The translations under genes were made by a program, and so were the position numbers. DNA of 64,000 nt from a candidate division CPR3 bacterium GWF2_35_18 (GTDB lineage Bacteria; Patescibacteriota; CPR3; GWF2-35-18). Where the stretch lies: positions 3,563 to 67,562 of the forward strand of contig MESW01000007.1 of assembly GCA_001771135.1 (NCBI GenBank), read 5' to 3'. How positions within the stretch are numbered: the stretch's first letter is position 1; each line of letters starts with the position of its first letter. Shown piece by piece: positions 14,725-54,543 of this stretch. A model generated the notes under the pieces. It made no database searches. It was not told the origin of the DNA and saw only the letters and a list, made by a program, of their open reading frames with translations.

Positions 14725-14738
14725 AAATGAAGTAAAGA

Positions 14739-14780
14739 TGGAAGGAGAGGAGTTTACTCCTCTCCTTCCATTCATTATTT
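14739..14780 (+). terminator. Intrinsic terminator after argG (12-bp perfect stem TGGAAGGAGAGG / CCTCTCCTTCCA, loop AGTTTACT, T-rich tail)
   Basis: Inverted repeat read directly. Confidence 0.6.
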
Positions 14781-14919: not shown

Positions 14920-16830
14920 ATGTCAAAAATTCAAAAGAACCCATCCCAAATCATCAAAAATCTAATTTTTCAAGCTCTTACTCAAATTGGCTTGAAAGAT
15001 AAACTAAAATTAAGTTTATCAGATATTGAAACTTCTCATTCTAAAGATTTTATATACGGTGATTATACTTCAAATATCGCTATGTCTTTGTACAGAATGT
15101 TGGCATTTGCTCTCGATTCTCATGTTTCTGGTGGGAAGAAGTCTGGAGTTATTTGGGTTCCAATTCCTGGAAAGAATTGGAGATCTCCCATAGAATTAGC
15201 TGAGGAAATAAAAAACAAAATATTAAGTGAAGATATGATTGATCGAATAGAAGTTGTCAAACCAGGATTTATCAATTTTTATTTAAATAAAAATTATCTA
15301 CTTTCAGAGCTAGATAGAATCGTTAAAGAAGAAAAAGAATATGGAAAGTTGAAGCTTTGGCAAGGTCAAAAGATCGTTGTGGAATATACCGATCCCAATC
15401 CTTTCAAGGAATTTCATATAGGACATCTTTACAGTAATACGGTAGGAGAATCTTTAACGCGTTTATTTGAATCTATGGGTGCGGAAGTAAAGAGGGCTGA
15501 TTATTTTGGAGATGTCGGTATGCATGTGGCCAAATCACTTTGGGGTTTGAGACAAAAAATGTCTAGAGAGAATACTCAACTAGCTACTTTAAAAGTAAAG
15601 ACATTGAAAGAGAGAATTAAATATTTAGGCCAAGCTTACGCAAAAGGGGCAACAGCTTATGAGGAAGATAATAAGGCAAAGAATGAAATTAAAAATATTA
15701 ACTACTTAGTTTATATCTCAGCTCAAAATTATATGAGGGAAAAGTACAATTGGGAACCGCAGGTTAATTATAAAAAATATGTTCAGTACAAAGAATCGGA
15801 ATTAAAAGAGATTTCAGAGTTTTATCAAATTGGGAGAGAATGGAGTTTATCTTATTTTGAAGAGATTTATCAGAGATTAGGGACGAAGTTTGATTTTTAC
15901 TATCCGGAAAGTATTTCGGGTGAATATGGTTTTAAAGTAGTCAAGGAATTTGCAAAAGTATTTCAAAAAAGTGAAGGTGCAATAATTTTTGACGGTGAAA
16001 AATACGGTCTACACAAGAGAGTCTTTATAAATTCGTTAGGTTTACCTACGTATGAAGCCAAAGAACTAGGTTTATCGATTAAAAAATATGAAGATTATCA
16101 ATATGATAAATCAGTAATTGTGACCGGAAATGAAATTAATGAATATTTTAAAGTTTTACTAAAGGTTTTGGGAGAGATTAAAGCAGATCTTGCAAAAAAA
16201 ACGACACATATTGGGCACGGAATGGTTCGTTTACCAGAAGGAAAAATGTCTAGTCGCACCGGAAAAATTAAAACAGGGGAATGGTTAATTGAAGAGGGAA
16301 AACTAAAAGCTTTAGAACTTATAAATAGTGATGAATTTACAGATACGGATAAAGAAAAATTAGGAGAAATAGTCGGAATTGGAGCGGTAAAATACGCTTT
16401 ACTTAAACATGGAGTAGGGCATGATATCGAATTTGATTTCAAAACCTCAGTTTCTCTAGAGGGAAACTCTGGTCCTTATCTTCAATATACGTATGCTAGA
16501 ACTAGAAGTGTTCTACGGAAAGTTAAAGATTATAAATCAAAGGTTTTAATAAACAAATTAGAGTTGAATGATCAGGAAATATCGATATTACGTACAATTT
16601 ATAAATTTTCAGAGGTGGTTACAGATTCCGCCGAGAGTTATTCTCCGAATTTAATCTGTAATTTTCTCTTTGACCTAGCTCAAAAATACAATTCATTTTA
16701 TAATGATTATCCAATTATTAAATCAGATAAAGATATCAAACAATTTCGTCTACTGCTAACAGTTGCAGTTTCTCAAATTATTAAAAACGGATTGTATTTA
16801 CTTGGAATTAAAGTTCCAGAAAGGATGTAA
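14920..16830 (+). CDS. argS: Arginyl-tRNA synthetase
   Basis: HIGH motif FHIGHLYSNTVGE; C-terminal DALR domain ending ...LGIKVPERM (universal ArgRS C-terminal Met). Confidence 0.9.
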   Translation: MSKIQKNPSQIIKNLIFQALTQIGLKDKLKLSLSDIETSHSKDFIYGDYTSNIAMSLYRMLAFALDSHVSGGKKSGVIWVPIPGKNWRSPIELAEEIKNKILSEDMIDRIEVVKPGFINFYLNKNYLLSELDRIVKEEKEYGKLKLWQGQKIVVEYTDPNPFKEFHIGHLYSNTVGESLTRLFESMGAEVKRADYFGDVGMHVAKSLWGLRQKMSRENTQLATLKVKTLKERIKYLGQAYAKGATAYEEDNKAKNEIKNINYLVYISAQNYMREKYNWEPQVNYKKYVQYKESELKEISEFYQIGREWSLSYFEEIYQRLGTKFDFYYPESISGEYGFKVVKEFAKVFQKSEGAIIFDGEKYGLHKRVFINSLGLPTYEAKELGLSIKKYEDYQYDKSVIVTGNEINEYFKVLLKVLGEIKADLAKKTTHIGHGMVRLPEGKMSSRTGKIKTGEWLIEEGKLKALELINSDEFTDTDKEKLGEIVGIGAVKYALLKHGVGHDIEFDFKTSVSLEGNSGPYLQYTYARTRSVLRKVKDYKSKVLINKLELNDQEISILRTIYKFSEVVTDSAESYSPNLICNFLFDLAQKYNSFYNDYPIIKSDKDIKQFRLLLTVAVSQIIKNGLYLLGIKVPERM

Positions 16831-16832
16831 AG

Positions 16833-17456
16833 ATGTTTTTTGTGATTGAAGGAATTGATGGGGCTGGTTGTGGAGCCCAGCGTAAAAATCTAGAAAAGCT
16901 AGCAAATATTAGCGGAAAAGAAATTGTGACGATGAAATATCCATATTATGATAATGCTTTGGGGGAAGTTTTACGTAAATTTCTGAAAGAAGGTAAAGAT
17001 CTTTCTGTGGAAATGCAGTTTTTGTTATTTGCTGGGCAAATGATCTCAGAAAAAGAGAAGATAGCAAAGTTACGAAAAGAGAAAATCATTGTTTGTGATC
17101 GCTATTTTGCTGGAACCCTAGTCTATCAAGGTTTAAAGGGTTTTGATTGGCAAAAAGGATTAAGATTTGCTAATGATTTTCACCTAGAAATTCCCGATAC
17201 GATCTTTTATTTGGATACACCGGTTGATGTTGCTAGAGAAAGGAAACAACAAGAAGAAGGTAAAAAAATCCTCGATCGTCATGAAGCTGATTTTGAATTT
17301 ACTAAAAAAGTTGATCAAAAATATAGGGAACTTATTAAGAAAAAAGTTTTTGCAAAATGGATTATGATCGATAATACGAAAACTATTGACGAAGTCACCG
17401 AAAATATTGTAAATATAACCAATAAATTAATTGAAGGAGGCAGGAATACAAAATAG
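16833..17456 (+). CDS. Thymidylate kinase family paralog with degenerate P-loop (GAGCGAQ instead of GAGKSTQ), likely not a functional kinase
   Basis: Tmk DRY motif CDRYFAGTLVYQG and LID-like region ILDRHEADFEF present; checked DNA: ggggctggttgtggagcccag = G A G C G A Q; 2-nt gap to argS stop. Confidence 0.7.
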   Translation: MFFVIEGIDGAGCGAQRKNLEKLANISGKEIVTMKYPYYDNALGEVLRKFLKEGKDLSVEMQFLLFAGQMISEKEKIAKLRKEKIIVCDRYFAGTLVYQGLKGFDWQKGLRFANDFHLEIPDTIFYLDTPVDVARERKQQEEGKKILDRHEADFEFTKKVDQKYRELIKKKVFAKWIMIDNTKTIDEVTENIVNITNKLIEGGRNTK

Positions 17457-17476: not shown

Positions 17477-18088
17477 TTGATCGTTTTGTGGTTCTATGCT
17501 TGTAAAATTATGGAAAGAACTTTTGTCGCAATTAAACCAGATGGTGTAATGAGGGGTTTAATTGGTGAAATCATCCGAAGGTTTGAAAATTCGGGTTTAA
17601 GATTAGTAGCTATGAAAATGCTTATGGCTGATGAAGAGAGAATTAAAGGAACTTATCACGCTACGGATAAATGGCGTTCAGAGATGGGAGAAAAAACTTT
17701 AAAAAGTTATAAAGAATTTGGAAAAGATCCTACCAGTGAGCTTGGAACTAATGAAGCTCTCGAAATTGGAAAATTAATTGAAAGTTGGATTTATGAATAC
17801 TGGAAGTCTGGCCCTATAGTTGTCATGGCTGTTGAAGGTAATCACGCGATTAAGAATGTTAGAATGATTATTGGATATACTGTTCCTACTGATGCTGTTC
17901 CCGGAACAATTCGGGGTGATTATTCTATTGACTCTCCAGTTCTTGCTAATCTGCGTAAACGCCCAATCAAAAACTTAATTCATGCTTCTGGCAGTGTAGA
18001 AGAGGCTGAGATGGAGGTCAAAAACTGGTTTACCGATAAAGAAATTGTCGAATATAAGAGAGCCGATCATTCAATTATGTTCGACTAA
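17477..18088 (+). CDS. ndk: Nucleoside diphosphate kinase with ~45 aa internal insertion (probable start at MERTF, nt 17510)
   Basis: ERTFVAIKPDGV..., catalytic His region NLIHASGSVEEAEMEV (NxxHGSDS); insertion between the FYAEH-equivalent and GPIVVMAVEG. Confidence 0.85.
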   Translation: MIVLWFYACKIMERTFVAIKPDGVMRGLIGEIIRRFENSGLRLVAMKMLMADEERIKGTYHATDKWRSEMGEKTLKSYKEFGKDPTSELGTNEALEIGKLIESWIYEYWKSGPIVVMAVEGNHAIKNVRMIIGYTVPTDAVPGTIRGDYSIDSPVLANLRKRPIKNLIHASGSVEEAEMEVKNWFTDKEIVEYKRADHSIMFD

Positions 18089-18115
18089 AGTTTTTTTTAT
18101 TAAGAATTTTTAAAA

Positions 18116-18160
18116 GGGCGATTCGGTAAAAACCGAATCGCCCTTTTGTTTTGGTTTTTT
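18116..18160 (+). terminator. Intrinsic terminator after ndk (GGGCGATTCGG / CCGAATCGCCC then T-run)
   Basis: Inverted repeat plus TTTTGTTTTGGTTTTTT. Confidence 0.65.
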
Positions 18161-51546: not shown

Positions 51547-52686
51547 ATGAAAGTATATTTTACCGCTTCAGTATCATCAGGTCGGGCTTATCTTCTTCAA
51601 TATAAAATCATTATTAAAGCATTAAAGAGTCTTGGTCATAAAGTTCTATCTGAGGATGTGGCTTTTGATAGTGTTAACAAAAATGGAGATCGTTTAAAAA
51701 GAGACTCAACTCTTCCTCCAGCAGAGATTTTTTTAAGAGAACGAAGAGAAGTTGAAGAATCGGATATTGTGATTGCTGAAGTTTCTCAATCTTCTATGGG
51801 GGTAGGATTTTTGATAAGTCATGCTCTTCAGCAAAGAAAACCGGTTTTAGCACTTCTCTATGGAGATATCGAAGAAAAAAATATCTCTCCTTTTCTGGAA
51901 GGGCATCCCTCTCAAAATCTTTTTTTAGAACATTATACTGAAGATAACTTGAAGATTGTTTTAAAAAAGTTTTTCCATCATATGGAAGTGAATAACAAAC
52001 GTAAAGGTAAATTAGTCGTAGTTGATGGGAGTGATAGCTCTGGGAAGAAAACTCAAGTAGATTTATTATTACAATATCTTCAAAGTAAGAAATACAAAAC
52101 TAAGTATATTGACTTTCCTCGTTATTATTCATCTTTTCACGGTCGTACTGTAGCGCGATATTTAAAAGGAGAATTTGGAGGATTGAATGAAGTAAATCCT
52201 TATCTATCTTCACTAGCATACGCTTTAGATCGCTCGGCAGCAAAAGAAGATCTGGATGCGTGGTTACTTGAAGATAATATCGTTATTGCAAACAGATATG
52301 TTTCATCAAGCATGGCTTTTCAAACAGTTAGGCTTCCTGAAAAAGAAAGAGAAATTTTTTTGAAATGGTTGTACGAAATGGAATACAAAGAACATAAACT
52401 TCCTATAGAAGATATTGTTATTTATCTTTACGTACCGGTTTCTATTTCGCAAAAACTTATGGAGAATCGAGAAAAGAAAAAATACCTCAAGGGAAAAGAT
52501 AAAGATATTCACGAAAAAAATGTTGAATATCTTAAAGATGTTGAAAATATGTATCTAGAGCTTGTTAAAAGAAACAAGAAATGGGTGAAGATTAATTGTA
52601 TTGATAAAAAGGGAAACCTAAGATCCAAAGAAGATATCCATAGGGAAGTGATCAGTCTTTTAAAGAAAAAAATGATCTTTAAATAA
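51547..52686 (+). CDS. tmk: Fusion: N-terminal nucleoside 2-deoxyribosyltransferase / DNPH1(Rcl)-like domain (catalytic Glu replaced) + C-terminal thymidylate kinase
   Basis: N-domain VYFTASVSSGRAY ... DIVIAEVSQSSMGVGFLISHA (Rcl has DVVVAEVTQPSLGVGYELGRA; E to L here); C-domain P-loop VVVDGSDSSGKKTQ, DRY motif ANRYVSSSMAFQ. Confidence 0.8.
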   Translation: MKVYFTASVSSGRAYLLQYKIIIKALKSLGHKVLSEDVAFDSVNKNGDRLKRDSTLPPAEIFLRERREVEESDIVIAEVSQSSMGVGFLISHALQQRKPVLALLYGDIEEKNISPFLEGHPSQNLFLEHYTEDNLKIVLKKFFHHMEVNNKRKGKLVVVDGSDSSGKKTQVDLLLQYLQSKKYKTKYIDFPRYYSSFHGRTVARYLKGEFGGLNEVNPYLSSLAYALDRSAAKEDLDAWLLEDNIVIANRYVSSSMAFQTVRLPEKEREIFLKWLYEMEYKEHKLPIEDIVIYLYVPVSISQKLMENREKKKYLKGKDKDIHEKNVEYLKDVENMYLELVKRNKKWVKINCIDKKGNLRSKEDIHREVISLLKKKMIFK

Positions 52687-52690
52687 ATTG

Positions 52691-53182
52691 CTATTTTGTT
52701 AGTTCAAGAAACCGGAACTCATATTGATTTTCTTTTCGCCAATCGGATTCCCAGATTACTTTTTTGAATTTAGAATACTCTGGAAAGAATATTGAAGCAT
52801 TGAAATTACCTTTTACTTCGGTCAAATAGAGTTTATTAGCATATATCATTGCTTGCTGATAAATTTGACCGCCACCGATAATAAAAATCTCTTTTTGGTC
52901 GATATTTTTTGCTTCCTCAAGAGCGTTTTCTAAAGAATTAGCTACGATAATTCCATTTTGAGAAAAACTTGGATCACGGGTAATTACAATATTGGTTCTT
53001 TTAAGCAGTGGTTTTCCAATTGATTCAAAGGTCTTTCTTCCCATAATAATTGGATGGTTTGTAGTTAGAGTCTTGAATCTTTTAAAGTCTTCAGAGATAT
53101 GCCACAAAAGATTATTACCGTTTCCGATTTCGCGGTTAGGACCTATTGCAACGATGATACTAATAGTTGGTTTTGAGTTCAT
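52691..53182 (-). CDS. folA: Dihydrofolate reductase
   Basis: ISIIVAIGPNREIGNGNNLLWHISEDFKRFKTLTTNHPIIMGRKTFESIG. Confidence 0.85.
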   Translation of the reverse strand: MNSKPTISIIVAIGPNREIGNGNNLLWHISEDFKRFKTLTTNHPIIMGRKTFESIGKPLLKRTNIVITRDPSFSQNGIIVANSLENALEEAKNIDQKEIFIIGGGQIYQQAMIYANKLYLTEVKGNFNASIFFPEYSKFKKVIWESDWRKENQYEFRFLELTK

Positions 53183-53562
53183 TTACAGATTTCCTTGAAT
53201 GTTGTTTCTAATATTTTAGTAATATCAGCAAGATTCTCATATTCTATAAATTCATTGCTTATTTTTTGTAAAGAATATGCGGTTTTCACTCCTTTTTTAT
53301 AAATACAAACAATAGGTGTTTGGTATATGTCTGCCCAGCCTAACTCTATTCCTTGTCCAGTTGACGGAAAAGATACTTCCGCAAGTACTATATCTATAGA
53401 ATTTGATTCTAACAACTTCTTAATCTCGTACGGTTGTTTGCTATTTTCATGTGGAAAGATAAATTCGTACTTATTATTCAAAAAAGAGTTTCTTAACGGT
53501 TTATACAAACTATTTTTATAATCAGAATTTCTTAGATGAGAAACGTATATTTTCTTAAGCAT
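53179..53562 (-). CDS. Small nucleoside 2-deoxyribosyltransferase / DNPH1-like protein retaining the catalytic Glu
   Basis: DIVLAEVSFPSTGQGIELGWADIYQTPIVCIY (GxGxELG core); 4-nt overlap with folA start, 3-nt gap after thyA. Confidence 0.6.
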   Translation of the reverse strand: MLKKIYVSHLRNSDYKNSLYKPLRNSFLNNKYEFIFPHENSKQPYEIKKLLESNSIDIVLAEVSFPSTGQGIELGWADIYQTPIVCIYKKGVKTAYSLQKISNEFIEYENLADITKILETTFKEICK

Positions 53563-53565
53563 GGT

Positions 53566-54543
53566 TTAAACTTTATCTTTTCCAAATCCACCGATAACTG
53601 CTATAGGAGCTTTTATTGGTGGGTAAGGGTTATATCCTTCTAGGATAAAATCTTCAAATTTAAAGTCATCGATGTTCTTAATTTCTGGATTGATTTTCAT
53701 GGTTGGAAAGGGTTTTGGTTCTCGTGAAAGTTGTTCTTTTACCTGTTCCATATGATTTTCATAAATATGAACATCTCCGAAAGTGTGAACAAAATCTCCG
53801 GGTTCATATCCAGTTGCTTGAGCCAGTATCATGGTCAGAAGCGCATAACTAGCAATGTTAAAAGGTACGCCTAAAAAAACATCTGCGGAACGTTGATAAA
53901 GAAGTAGCGAAAGTTTCTTTTGTTCAACATTTATATTTACATGAAACATGGTATGACAGGGGACAATGGACATCGATTTTTCTTTTGAAGCTGACATTTC
54001 ATAGGAGAATTCAGGGTTCCAAGCGGAAACTAGGAAATGCTTTTTGTTTGGTTTTCGTTTAATTTTTTCAATCATCCAGGCAATTTGGTCTACAATTCGT
54101 CCGTCACTGCATTTCCATTTGCGCCATTGAACTCCATATACTGGACCGATATACCCCCATTTTTCCGCAAACTTCTCGTCATCTTTTATCTTTTGAGTAA
54201 AAGCTTTGATATCCAGTTCGGGAACTTCTTTATTATCCATGGCGTTTTGATAGCTTTTATATGCCCAGTCATCCCAGATATGCACATTATTATCGACAAG
54301 GTATTTAATGTTGTCGCAATTACCGGATAAAAACCATAGGAGCTCATGGATAATTCCGCGAAGAAAAACTTTTTTTGTGGTTAGAAGTGGAAAACCTTTG
54401 GAAAGATCAAAACGAATTTGGCGTCCAAAAACGCTTTTAAGTTTAATTCCGGTACTATGGCTAACCTTTATTGTTCCATTGTCTAAAATATCTTGCAGTA
54501 GATTGAGATATTGGTACTCTGGGTGTTGTTGATTTTGTGACAT
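53566..54543 (-). CDS. thyA: Thymidylate synthase (ThyA, long form with insertion)
   Basis: YLNLLQDILDNGT, FGRQIRFDLSKGFPLLTTKKVFLRGIIHELLWFLSG, catalytic Cys IVPCHTMFH, YQRSADVFLGVPFNIASYALLT. Confidence 0.9.
   Translation of the reverse strand: MSQNQQHPEYQYLNLLQDILDNGTIKVSHSTGIKLKSVFGRQIRFDLSKGFPLLTTKKVFLRGIIHELLWFLSGNCDNIKYLVDNNVHIWDDWAYKSYQNAMDNKEVPELDIKAFTQKIKDDEKFAEKWGYIGPVYGVQWRKWKCSDGRIVDQIAWMIEKIKRKPNKKHFLVSAWNPEFSYEMSASKEKSMSIVPCHTMFHVNINVEQKKLSLLLYQRSADVFLGVPFNIASYALLTMILAQATGYEPGDFVHTFGDVHIYENHMEQVKEQLSREPKPFPTMKINPEIKNIDDFKFEDFILEGYNPYPPIKAPIAVIGGFGKDKV

What the first reader, a model, noticed from the sequence alone, without database searches (positions are those of the whole stretch)
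16833..17456. Tmk paralog with the P-loop lysine lost, co-transcribed with argS
The family assignment is clear: DRY motif CDRYFAGTLVYQG and a LID-like region DRHEADFEF. The Walker A reads EGIDGAGCGAQ instead of EGxDGAGKSTQ, so Lys becomes Cys, Ser becomes Gly and Thr becomes Ala. I verified this directly in the DNA. The gene starts 2 nt after the argS stop. Together with the Rcl-Tmk fusion at 51547, which keeps an intact kinase but has a dead Rcl-like domain, the genome carries two reciprocally degenerate members of the dTMP pathway. That pattern suggests a regulatory, binding or pseudo-enzyme role rather than a second kinase.
Basis: seen in the sequence. Interest (0 to 1): 0.5.

Follow-up and report, generated by a model that had tools for sequence, protein, structure and literature searches.

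The report
Thymidylate kinase paralog lacking catalytic lysine
This small bacterial gene encodes a well-conserved copy of thymidylate kinase (an enzyme needed to make the DNA building block dTTP) that has lost the lysine all enzymes of this type use to handle ATP. The same loss is found in about a hundred related protein groups from ultra-small bacteria and archaea, so it is either a new non-catalytic "pseudo-kinase" or a kinase that works in an unknown way.

Summary
ORF 16833-17456 (+) encodes a 207-aa thymidylate-kinase-family protein. Its Walker A reads EGIDGAGCGAQ, so Lys is Cys, Ser is Gly and Thr is Ala. It starts 2 nt after argS and is followed by ndk; terminator-like hairpins bracket this three-gene unit.

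It is not an error or a fresh pseudogene. The identical protein occurs in at least 23 contigs from independent assemblies, and syntenic orthologs down to about 57% identity keep C-G-A/T with synonymous codon turnover.

It belongs to a divergent Tmk clade of CPR bacteria and DPANN-like archaea. In that clade 96 of 176 sequence groups lack the lysine. These genes sit beside ndk, adk or dcd-thyX-dut, and some are fused to adenylate kinase.

The window protein also lacks the thymine-O4 arginine. It has Glu where E. coli Tmk has its catalytic lid arginine. Some true orthologs have also lost the DRY arginine.

The same genome carries a lysine-bearing Rcl-Tmk fusion beside thyA-folA.

Best reading (about 0.5): a conserved, nucleotide-binding but non-catalytic Tmk paralog with a regulatory or scaffolding role. 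Main rival (about 0.3): a kinase that works without the Walker lysine. I found no description of it in the searchable literature.

The parts
14737..14772 (+). Terminator-like hairpin after argG; upstream boundary of the argS-tmkL-ndk unit
   Evidence: 16-bp stem with 8 GC pairs
14920..16830 (+). argS (arginyl-tRNA synthetase), first gene of the unit
   Evidence: Pfam Arg_tRNA_synt_N, tRNA-synt_1d and DALR_1; ORF
16833..17456 (+). tmkL: thymidylate-kinase-family protein without the Walker A lysine (207 aa)
16848..16880 (+). Degenerate P-loop E6-G-I-D-G-A-G-C13-G14-A15-Q16; the Cys13 codon TGT is at 16869-16871
   Evidence: Read directly in the DNA. C-G-A/T is conserved in orthologs with synonymous codon changes
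17040..17042 (+). Met70 codon, at the position of the thymine-O4-binding Arg (human R76, E. coli R78)
   Evidence: Alignment to human and E. coli Tmk
17097..17105 (+). D89-R90-Y91 (DRY motif; the Arg clamp is retained here but is His in orthologs P0005, P0006, P0007 and P0009)
17241..17285 (+). LID segment R137-K138-Q-Q-E141-E-G-K-K-I-L-D148-R-H-E151. R137 matches the adenine-stacking Arg (human R143, E. coli R149). E141 aligns with the E. coli catalytic lid Arg153
17510..18088 (+). ndk (nucleoside diphosphate kinase, 192 aa from the ATG; carries an internal insertion), last gene of the unit
   Evidence: Pfam NDK 2.2e-35 in two stretches. The 192-aa call appears in other assemblies. The tmkL-ndk adjacency recurs
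18111..18148 (+). Terminator-like hairpin after ndk; downstream boundary of the unit
   Evidence: 17-bp stem with 8 GC pairs followed by a T-run
51547..52686 (+). Second Tmk homolog: an Rcl-like domain fused to a lysine-bearing Tmk domain (DGSDSSGKKTQ, R at the R76 position, NRY). It is the likely catalytic dTMP kinase of this genome
52691..54543 (-). thyA (53566-54543), free-standing Rcl-like gene (53179-53562) and folA/DHFR (52691-53182): a thymidylate-synthesis operon convergent with the fusion gene
   Evidence: Pfam Thymidylat_synt 3.6e-106 and DHFR_1 5.6e-52. The synteny is conserved in L170-L172

Best explanation
tmkL encodes a folded thymidylate-kinase homolog under purifying selection. 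I think it still binds nucleotides but no longer transfers phosphate by the canonical mechanism. I read it as a non-catalytic ('pseudo-kinase') paralog that acts as a nucleotide-sensing, regulatory or scaffolding partner of the nucleotide kinases it is encoded or fused with. Those are Ndk in this window, Adk in archaea, and possibly the lysine-bearing Rcl-Tmk fusion of the same genome.

Shown:
- The fold, the conservation and the loss of the three P-loop side chains that hold the beta/gamma-phosphate and Mg2+.
- Loss of the thymine-O4 Arg.
- Glu at the lid position where E. coli Tmk has its catalytic Arg.
- The operon and fusion links.
- A second Tmk with the lysine in the same genome.

Inferred: retained nucleotide binding, absence of turnover, and the partner or partners.
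For: (1) Established P-loop kinase chemistry (my knowledge, not tested here): the Walker A Lys bridges the beta/gamma-phosphates and the following Ser/Thr binds Mg2+, and Lys mutants of NMP kinases lose orders of magnitude of kcat. Here the residues are Cys, Gly and Ala.

(2) The replacing residue is not chemically conserved across the subfamily: C 47, G 21, T 17, plus S, I, V, M, D and A.

(3) Further phosphate- and base-binding residues are gone. Human R76 is M70 and human R45 is Y39. E141 aligns with E. coli lid R153. Glu is present there in 92% of lysine-less members, against Gln in 50% of lysine-bearing clade members.

(4) Other catalytic residues are lost among syntenic relatives. True orthologs in the same argS-tmkL-ndk synteny (P0005/L168, P0007/L167; P0006 and P0009 by sequence only) have DHY instead of DRY. 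A relative that also precedes a tandem ndk pair, like the lysine-less Roizmanbacteria genes (L100, about 30% identical to them; orthology unproven), keeps the Lys but has DGY.

(5) The same genome has a lysine-bearing Tmk that keeps the R76-equivalent and carries an Mtb-TMPK-like FPRYY motif. It lies directly next to thyA-rcl-folA. That fusion family is widespread in CPR, with 714 homologs. A fusion ortholog and a DHY-tmkL ortholog come from the same sample with the same GC content, 0.376 and 0.378.

(6) Precedent inside the Tmk superfamily: in Sulfolobus PPK3, one Tmk-like paralog (rPPK3) is catalytically inactive and activates the catalytic paralog by hetero-oligomerisation (PMC12995831).

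(7) Natural fusions of lysine-less TmkL to one or two adenylate kinases with intact P-loops exist (P0085, P0093). Adjacency to ndk or adk recurs. Both point to physical or functional coupling with real kinases.
Against: The protein does not look like a decaying enzyme.
- The glycine-rich loop (E6, G7, D9, G10, G12), the DRY Arg (96%), the adenine-stacking R137 (97%), K138, E151, and the Y98-Q99 and stacking-aromatic positions are as conserved in the 96 lysine-less groups as in the 80 lysine-bearing ones.
- Within subclades the P-loop residues C-G-A, C-E-T and C-G-V-V are themselves strictly conserved.
- There is no rate acceleration relative to lysine-bearing relatives. TmkL diverges no faster than ArgS: 62% versus 63% identity.
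- The lysine-less genes occupy the genomic slots expected of the working tmk: dcd-thyX-dut-tmkL, tmkL-ndk and adk-tmkL.
- L093, a clade member with canonical GKTTQ, sits in the same tmk-deoC arrangement as lysine-less L001.
- I could not test whether some genomes have the lysine-less protein as their only Tmk.
- No physical interaction or binding data exist.
Confidence: 0.5

Rival explanations
1. TmkL is still a working (d)NMP kinase that dispenses with the Walker A lysine. The positive charge on the ATP beta/gamma-phosphates would come from lid lysines (K138, K144, K145). Alternatively it would come from an extra divalent metal held by E141, by the Glu that most subfamily members carry at K+1, and by D89. 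Because the thymine-O4 Arg is missing, its base specificity may differ from that of the Rcl-Tmk fusion, which would explain why both genes are kept.
For: Conservation:
- Both substrate pockets and the P-loop backbone are conserved as strongly as in lysine-bearing relatives, with no rate acceleration.

Genomic position:
- The genes sit exactly where a functional tmk is expected, next to thyX/dut/dcd, ndk or adk.
- A fusion to adenylate kinase would make metabolic sense for an ATP-using kinase.

Evolutionary pattern:
- The lysine state changes repeatedly within one clade, about 18 times on a rough NJ tree.
- That clade had already replaced the Mg-binding Ser/Thr and has an 'R-K' lid start, which fits the lysine having become dispensable there.

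Precedents from my own knowledge:
- Type I versus type II Tmks move a catalytic Arg between the P-loop and the lid.
- M. tuberculosis TMPK has GKRT and a Tyr39 phosphate ligand, like the YPxY motif here.
- WNK protein kinases relocated their catalytic Lys.
Against: - I know of no P-loop kinase shown to work without the Walker lysine.
- K138 is not specific to the lysine-less members. It is present in 63 of 80 lysine-bearing ones, so it is not a compensatory change.
- The position that supplies the lid Arg in E. coli Tmk is an acidic Glu here.
- The window subclade also lacks the K+1 Glu and the K+2 Thr, since it reads C-G-A.
- Close orthologs have additionally lost the DRY arginine.
- A lysine-bearing Tmk is present in the same genome.
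Confidence: 0.3
2. TmkL has acquired a different chemistry on the Tmk fold. Candidates are a metal-dependent nucleotidase or phosphatase, or a phosphotransferase using a donor other than an NTP. It would use the acidic residues D89 and E141, plus the K+1 Glu found in relatives.
For: Positive charges are lost and acidic residues gained around the phosphate site. The pocket residues are strongly conserved. A metallophosphatase lies between argS and tmkL in L005, and a HAD hydrolase lies next to tmkL in L015. These are weak hints only.
Against: No motif of any known hydrolase or alternative phosphotransferase was found. The only Pfam and NCBIfam hits are Tmk, dNK and generic AAA families. The adenine-stacking Arg is retained, which argues for an adenine nucleotide ligand.
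Confidence: 0.1
3. TmkL is the regulatory subunit of a PPK3-type polyphosphate kinase (an rPPK3 homolog).
For: PPK3 is built from two Tmk-like paralogs, one of them inactive (PMC12995831).
Against: - The closest solved relatives are eukaryotic-type TMPKs at 119 bits. The cPPK3 homolog 2plr/5h70 scores only 65 bits.
- No ppx, CHAD or SixA gene was annotated in the loci whose genes were called. The other loci were screened only for a small marker set that did not include these genes.
- rPPK3 keeps its ATP-binding residues and loses the DRX Arg, which is the opposite pattern to the window protein.
Confidence: 0.03
4. The substitution is a sequencing or assembly error, or a very recent pseudogenisation.
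For: None beyond the prior expectation that the lysine is invariant.
Against: - The identical protein occurs in at least 23 contigs from independent assemblies.
- Changing AAR-WSN-ACN to TGT-GGA-GCC needs several base changes.
- Syntenic orthologs at 57-64% identity keep C-G-A/T with synonymous turnover, such as TGT/TGC and GGA/GGT. dN is 0.27-0.40 while dS is saturated above 1.6.
- 17 positions are invariant across 45 relatives.
Confidence: 0.01

Closest known systems
Canonical thymidylate kinase (Tmk/TMPK, EC 2.7.4.9), especially eukaryotic type I (P. falciparum 2WWF, human 1E2D) and M. tuberculosis TMPK
   Same: It has the same fold, with TM 0.80. It shares the EGxDGxG loop, the DRY motif, the YQG motif, the stacking aromatic, the adenine-stacking Arg, and a lid ending in DRxE. 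Its YPxY motif resembles the FPRY/Tyr39 phosphate ligand of Mtb TMPK; that comparison rests on my own knowledge.
   Different: The Walker A Lys, Ser and Thr are replaced by Cys, Gly and Ala. The thymine-O4 Arg is replaced by Met. Glu stands at the E. coli lid-Arg153 position.
rPPK3, the inactive Tmk-like regulatory subunit of archaeal polyphosphate kinase 3 (PMC12995831)
   Same: It is a Tmk-superfamily paralog that has lost a catalytic residue, is retained under selection, and works together with a catalytic paralog. This is the best functional analogy for the pseudo-enzyme reading.
   Different: rPPK3 keeps its ATP-site residues and loses the DRX Arg. It is encoded next to cPPK3, ppx and CHAD. 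TmkL loses the P-loop Lys, keeps DRY, and sits next to ndk, adk or thyX.
MAGUK guanylate-kinase-like (GK) domains (from my own knowledge)
   Same: They are an NMP-kinase fold that lost its P-loop residues and catalysis and was kept as a binding module.
   Different: MAGUK GK domains are eukaryotic scaffold domains whose glycine-rich loop has decayed and which bind phosphopeptides. TmkL keeps an intact glycine-rich loop and both nucleotide pockets.
WNK ('with no lysine') protein kinases (from my own knowledge)
   Same: They lack the canonical catalytic lysine at its usual position and are still active because another lysine substitutes. This is the model for the rival reading.
   Different: The fold is unrelated (protein kinase, not P-loop NMP kinase). 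No TmkL-specific substitute lysine was found; K138 is shared with lysine-bearing relatives.

Membership tests
dTMP kinase (Tmk; PF02223 / TIGR00041) | Overall sequence and fold homology | tested here: met
   PF02223 scores 1.8e-28. TIGR00041 scores 106.3 bits against a cut-off of 83.25. The AF2 model has pLDDT 93.7 and matches TMPK structures at TM 0.80.
dTMP kinase (Tmk; PF02223 / TIGR00041) | Walker A / P-loop GxxGxGK[ST] with the catalytic Lys and the Mg-binding Ser/Thr | tested here: not met
   The P-loop reads G7-I-D-G-A-G-C13-G14-A15. The loss is conserved in all 45 close relatives and in 96 of 176 clade groups.
dTMP kinase (Tmk; PF02223 / TIGR00041) | DR[YHF] motif with the Arg that clamps the donor and acceptor phosphates | tested here: met
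   D89-R90-Y91 is present in the window protein. In orthologs P0005, P0006, P0007 and P0009 the motif is DHY.
dTMP kinase (Tmk; PF02223 / TIGR00041) | Arg that hydrogen-bonds thymine O4 (human R76, E. coli R78, Mtb R74) | tested here: not met
   The aligned residue is Met70. It is M, F or I throughout the clade.
dTMP kinase (Tmk; PF02223 / TIGR00041) | Lid with the adenine-stacking Arg and, in type II enzymes, a catalytic lid Arg | tested here: inconclusive
   R137 aligns with human R143 and E. coli R149 and is 97% conserved. The E. coli R153 position is Glu141. Lid lysines K138, K144 and K145 are present, but their role cannot be assessed without coordinates.
dTMP kinase (Tmk; PF02223 / TIGR00041) | ATP:dTMP phosphotransferase activity | not testable with these tools
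   This needs an enzyme assay or complementation.
PPK3 regulatory subunit (rPPK3) | Encoded with cPPK3, ppx, SixA and CHAD genes | tested here: not met
   The identified neighbours are argS, ndk, adk, dcd, thyX, dut, glyA and deoC. No ppx, CHAD or SixA appears among the Pfam-annotated called genes. The remaining loci were screened only for a marker set that did not include those genes.
PPK3 regulatory subunit (rPPK3) | Closest sequence relatives are PPK3 proteins; ATP-site residues kept and DRX Arg lost | tested here: not met
   The cPPK3 homolog 2plr/5h70 scores 65 bits, against 119 bits for P. falciparum TMPK. The window protein shows the opposite pattern: Lys lost and DRY kept.
Pseudoenzyme (non-catalytic homolog of an enzyme) | Loss of residues essential for catalysis while the fold stays under purifying selection | tested here: met
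   The P-loop Lys, Ser and Thr are lost. dN is 0.27-0.40 with dS saturated. 17 positions are invariant.
Pseudoenzyme (non-catalytic homolog of an enzyme) | Demonstrated absence of catalytic activity | not testable with these tools
   This needs biochemistry.

The most novel reading that the evidence does not exclude
The lysine-less TmkL proteins are fully competent (d)NMP kinases. In many CPR and DPANN genomes they would be the only thymidylate kinase. That would make them the first natural P-loop kinases that catalyse phosphoryl transfer without the Walker A lysine, using lid lysines and/or a second metal ion bound by E141 and the K+1 Glu.
Probability: 0.3. Interest if true: 0.85.

Novelty: new variant of a known kind. 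Interest (0 to 1): 0.62.

Why it matters
The Walker A lysine is treated as invariant and indispensable in P-loop kinases. 'K-to-A' is the standard way to make a dead mutant.

Here, about a hundred sequence groups lack that lysine. They come from the two great radiations of ultra-small symbionts, CPR bacteria and DPANN-like archaea. All stay under strong purifying selection and sit in dTTP and nucleotide-kinase operons.

If they are inactive, they form a sizeable prokaryotic pseudo-kinase family inside an essential pathway. Databases currently annotate them as 'dTMP kinase', which would affect metabolic reconstructions of these organisms.

If they are active, they overturn a textbook rule of P-loop catalysis.

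Either outcome can be tested directly with one recombinant protein.

Tried and rejected
- Sequencing error or recent pseudogene: rejected. The identical protein is in at least 23 contigs, orthologs show synonymous codon turnover, and dS is saturated with low dN.
- A lysine-bearing near-identical ortholog (P0004, 99% identical over 77%): rejected. Its first 59 residues are unrelated sequence, so it is a chimeric contig.
- K138 as a relocated, compensating lysine: not supported as a specific compensation. The R-K lid start is also present in 63 of 80 lysine-bearing clade members.
- E141 as a marker of inactivation: weakened. L093 combines a canonical GKTTQ with E141, so E141 probably predates the lysine loss.
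- Mosaic decay of catalytic residues as proof of a pseudoenzyme: only partly holds. The DRY Arg is kept in 96% of lysine-less groups, the same as in lysine-bearing ones.
- PPK3 membership: rejected.
- A tandem partner Tmk next to the lysine-less gene: none within +/-10 kb in any E141-type locus. The second Tmk of the window is 34 kb away.
- Genome-wide co-occurrence of a lysine-bearing Tmk: could not be done. I obtained only same-sample, same-GC evidence for one relative.
- Measuring distances in the AlphaFold model, such as K138 to the P-loop: not possible because coordinates are not exposed.
- Literature search for a lysine-less or pseudo-enzyme Tmk: nothing found apart from PPK3.
Full report
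**1. Observation**

The ORF 16833..17456 (+) encodes 207 aa beginning MFFVIEGIDGAGCGAQRKNLEKL. Codons 12-16 read ggt TGT GGA GCC cag. The three residues that follow the last P-loop glycine are therefore Cys-Gly-Ala, not Lys-Ser/Thr-Thr.

The argS ORF (14920..16830) ends 2 nt before the ATG. An AGGA ribosome-binding-like motif lies inside the end of argS.

The family assignment is solid:
- Pfam Thymidylate_kin scores 1.8e-28.
- NCBIfam TIGR00041 scores 106.3 bits, above its 83.25 cut-off.
- A family profile finds P. falciparum and human TMPK first among solved structures, at 1.9e-33.
- An AlphaFold2 model built on 45 relatives has mean pLDDT 93.7. It superposes on those TMPKs with TM 0.80.

Strong terminator-like hairpins lie at 14737-14772 (after argG) and 18111-18148 (after ndk), and none of comparable strength lies in between. 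The transcription unit is therefore most likely argS-tmkL-ndk.

**2. Not an error, not a recent pseudogene**

The identical 207-aa protein is called on at least 23 contigs. They come from independent NCBI, ENA and Logan assemblies of several samples, always in the order argS-tmkL-ndk. The window matches candidate division CPR3 bacterium GWF2_35_18.

Three orthologs were compared at the DNA level: P0005, P0007 and P0011, at 57-64% identity. P0005 (L168) and P0007 (L167) share the argS-tmkL-ndk order. In P0011 (L005) a metallophosphatase gene lies between argS and tmkL. All three keep C-G-A/T-Q while the codons turn over synonymously (TGT/TGC, GGA/GGT, GCC/GCA/GCT). dN is 0.27-0.40 and dS is saturated.

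TmkL diverges no faster than ArgS between the window and L167: 62% versus 63% identity. One apparent lysine-bearing near-identical relative, P0004, is a chimeric contig.

**3. What the family is**

*Size and make-up.* A word-indexed search gave 47 clusters scoring at least 127 bits, then a gap to canonical Tmks at 72 bits or less. Every full-length member lacks the lysine. A profile search of 1.84 billion representatives gave 185 hits at E of 1e-30 or better.

The best 150 define a broader divergent Tmk clade with these features:
- YPxY in place of FPER or EPGG.
- A hydrophobic residue (M, F or I) where human R76 / E. coli R78 contacts thymine O4.
- A non-Ser/Thr residue after the Walker lysine.
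- A lid that starts R-K.

*Lysine status.* Within this clade 96 groups lack the lysine and 80 keep it. At the lysine position the lysine-less groups have C 47, G 21 and T 17, with the rest S, I, V, M, D or A. The next residue is mostly Glu (48) or Gly (38).

On a rough neighbour-joining tree the lysine state changes about 18 times. This number is only indicative. L093 is a clade member with a canonical GKTTQ. Its ten nearest relatives are all lysine-less and carry several different residues at the lysine position. It shares the tmk-deoC arrangement of lysine-less L001. The lysine-less proteins are therefore derived orthologs of a normal-looking Tmk.

*Taxonomy.* Species-representative genomes place the lysine-less form in Roizmanbacteria, Saccharibacteria and other Patescibacteria. 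It also occurs in Aenigmarchaeota and other small archaea.

*Discriminating positions.* Besides position 13, the only strongly discriminating position is 141. It is Glu in 92% of lysine-less groups and Gln in 50% of lysine-bearing groups. It aligns with the catalytic lid Arg153 of E. coli Tmk.

*What stays conserved.* These positions are 92-100% conserved in the lysine-less groups: E6, G7, I8, D9, G10, G12, P37, G44, R90, Y91, Q99, P121, R137, K138, E151, Y164 and W176. In the lysine-bearing groups the same residues predominate at 79-100%.

**4. Genomic context**

Lysine-less genes lie in one of three settings:
- Immediately next to ndk. This holds for the window and for L005/6, L007-L010, L087-L089, L091, L092, L094, L097, L167 and L168. 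In Roizmanbacteria-like loci the ndk is often a tandem pair.
- Inside dcd-thyX-dut(-glyA) clusters (L001/L013, L012, L090, L096, L102).
- Next to adk (L004, L015).

These settings rest.

Two representatives are natural fusions of a lysine-less TmkL to one or two adenylate kinases with intact P-loops. These are P0093 from an archaeon (L183) and P0085. No second Tmk lies within +/-10 kb of any of these genes.

**5. The second Tmk of the window**

The gene at 51547..52686 encodes an Rcl-like domain fused to a Tmk domain. That Tmk domain has DGSDSSGKKTQ, an Arg at the R76 position, an Mtb-TMPK-like FPRYY segment, and NRY. Its best NCBIfam match is the actinobacterial-type dTMP kinase model.

It is convergent with thyA (53566..54543), a free-standing Rcl-like gene, and folA. 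This arrangement is conserved in relatives L170-L172.

The fusion family is large in CPR, with 714 homologs. Its consensus P-loop is DGTDGSGKGT and its motif is NRY.

A fusion ortholog (L170) and a DHY-type tmkL ortholog (L167) come from the same sample. Their GC contents are 0.376 and 0.378, and their divergence from the window is mutually consistent. Both genes therefore probably co-occur in that relative too.

**6. Interpretation**

*For a non-catalytic protein.*
- All three P-loop side chains that hold the phosphates and Mg2+ are gone.
- The substitute residue is chemically unconstrained across the family.
- The thymine-O4 Arg is gone.
- The position of the type II lid Arg is acidic.
- True orthologs have additionally replaced the DRY Arg by His. 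A related lineage that also precedes a tandem ndk pair keeps Lys but has DGY.
- A lysine-bearing Tmk sits next to thyA-folA in the same small genome.
- The Tmk superfamily already offers a precedent. In archaeal PPK3, the inactive rPPK3 subunit activates the catalytic cPPK3 paralog (PMC12995831).

*Against it.*
- The glycine-rich loop, the acceptor pocket, the DRY Arg (96%) and the adenine-stacking Arg are conserved exactly as in lysine-bearing relatives.
- The P-loop residues are fixed within subclades.
- There is no rate acceleration.
- The genes sit where the working tmk is expected.

*Conclusion.* I take the most likely reading to be a nucleotide-binding, non-catalytic Tmk paralog that partners with Ndk, Adk or the catalytic Tmk (0.5). 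A genuine kinase working without the Walker lysine follows (0.3). Less likely are a new chemistry (0.1), a PPK3-type role (0.03) and an artefact (0.01). Nucleotide binding, lack of turnover and the identity of the partner are inferences, not results.

**7. Comparison and novelty**

By homology the protein is a member of the Tmk family. It fails two defining functional features, the Walker A Lys-Ser/Thr and the thymine-O4 Arg, so it should not be filed as a dTMP kinase without experimental proof.

It is not a PPK3 subunit. Its closest solved relatives are eukaryotic-type TMPKs, no ppx or CHAD gene was annotated in the loci with called genes, and the pattern of lost residues is the opposite one.

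Full-text searches found no description of a lysine-less or pseudo-enzyme Tmk. Public records name the protein 'dTMP kinase'. I rate it a new variant of a known kind, with moderate-to-high interest.

Noticed in passing
L014:2677-3324, L016:10969-11325 (-), L099:4284-4634 (-), L024:9989-10582: There is a second, different kind of lysine-less Tmk in archaea (Woesearchaeota, ANME-1, Aenigmatarchaeota). Its P-loop is EG.DGAGL[FST]TQ, with Leu in place of Lys, and it otherwise has canonical features (KEPT, LLFSADR, DRY). In L014, L016 and L099 it is encoded next to a lysine-bearing member of the divergent clade (GAGKSVQ or GAGKRTL) that lacks the R76-equivalent. The pair therefore has complementary defects, which suggests a heteromeric Tmk.
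   Followed up: partly
window:51547-52686; L170-L172; P0222-P0341: The Rcl-like/Tmk fusion is a widespread CPR architecture with 714 homologs. In the window and its close orthologs the Rcl-like domain reads AEVSQ[SP]SMGVG[FL]LI. It lacks the Glu that free-standing Rcl-like proteins keep (GQGIELGWA). Many more distant fusions have FL[IM]EHAL, with a Glu two residues later, and P0230 keeps the Glu (GVGSEIS).
   Followed up: partly
window:53179-53562 (-): A 127-aa free-standing Rcl / nucleoside-2-deoxyribosyltransferase-like protein sits between thyA and folA. It has no Pfam or NCBIfam hit but does carry the AEVSFPSTGQGIELGWA motif. The arrangement is conserved in L171 and L172.
   Followed up: partly
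window:17510-18088; L007-L009, L087, L088, L092, L097, L100: The Ndk here is long (192 aa). It matches the Pfam NDK model in two stretches, which implies an internal insertion of roughly 45 residues. Roizmanbacteria-like loci carry two tandem copies of such ndk genes after tmkL.
   Followed up: no
P0085 (663 aa), P0093 (425 aa; L183:6191-7468): These are natural fusions of a lysine-less TmkL to adenylate kinase (one or two copies, zinc-lid type, intact GSGKG P-loops). L183 is from an archaeon and is followed by another adk.
   Followed up: partly
P0144 (448 aa), P0165 (434 aa): These are tandem Tmk-Tmk fusions. A canonical-type Tmk domain is followed by an Mtb-TMPK-like (NRY/DRY, FP.YG) domain, and both carry the Walker lysine. 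The two Tmk types found separately in the window can therefore occur in one polypeptide.
   Followed up: no
P0176, P0206, P0211, P0218; L100:9959-10627: This sub-group of the clade keeps the Walker lysine (ESDGGGKG. or GAGKGCQ) but has DGY instead of DRY, so the Arg clamp is lost. L100 is followed by ndk-ndk, like the lysine-less Roizmanbacteria genes.
   Followed up: partly
P0049, P0063, P0071, P0190: These are otherwise canonical Tmks (R76 and DRY present) with Thr in place of the Walker lysine (GAGTTTQ, GSGTSTQ, GSGTTTQ, ASGTTTQ). Lysine loss is therefore not confined to one clade.
   Followed up: no
L007:4535-5170 (-), L008:11763-12368 (-), L087, L088, L092, L097: A roughly 200-aa P-loop protein (GQIAVGKG; Pfam AAA_17/AAA_18, NMP-kinase-like) is conserved near tmkL-ndk-ndk in Roizmanbacteria-like loci. 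It is a candidate alternative (d)NMP kinase. L007 also has a 184-aa Rcl-like protein with a ribbon-helix-helix tail.
   Followed up: partly
window:54785-55714; L171:4684-5670: Ribosomal protein S2 carries a C-terminal extension that matches the RNA polymerase alpha C-terminal domain / HHH_5 (3.6e-06). The same Pfam combination is seen in a relative.
   Followed up: no
L171:2092-3006 (-): In one relative the DHFR next to the fusion gene is itself fused to a NUDIX domain (304 aa).
   Followed up: no
window:12023-14724: argH (Lyase_1) and argG (argininosuccinate synthase) lie directly upstream of argS. A strong terminator-like hairpin separates them from the argS-tmkL-ndk unit.
   Followed up: no
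P0002 (186 aa), P0004 (219 aa): These are two near-identical database versions of the window protein, and both look like assembly artefacts. P0002 has a 21-residue internal deletion. P0004 has an unrelated 59-residue N-terminus.
   Followed up: yes
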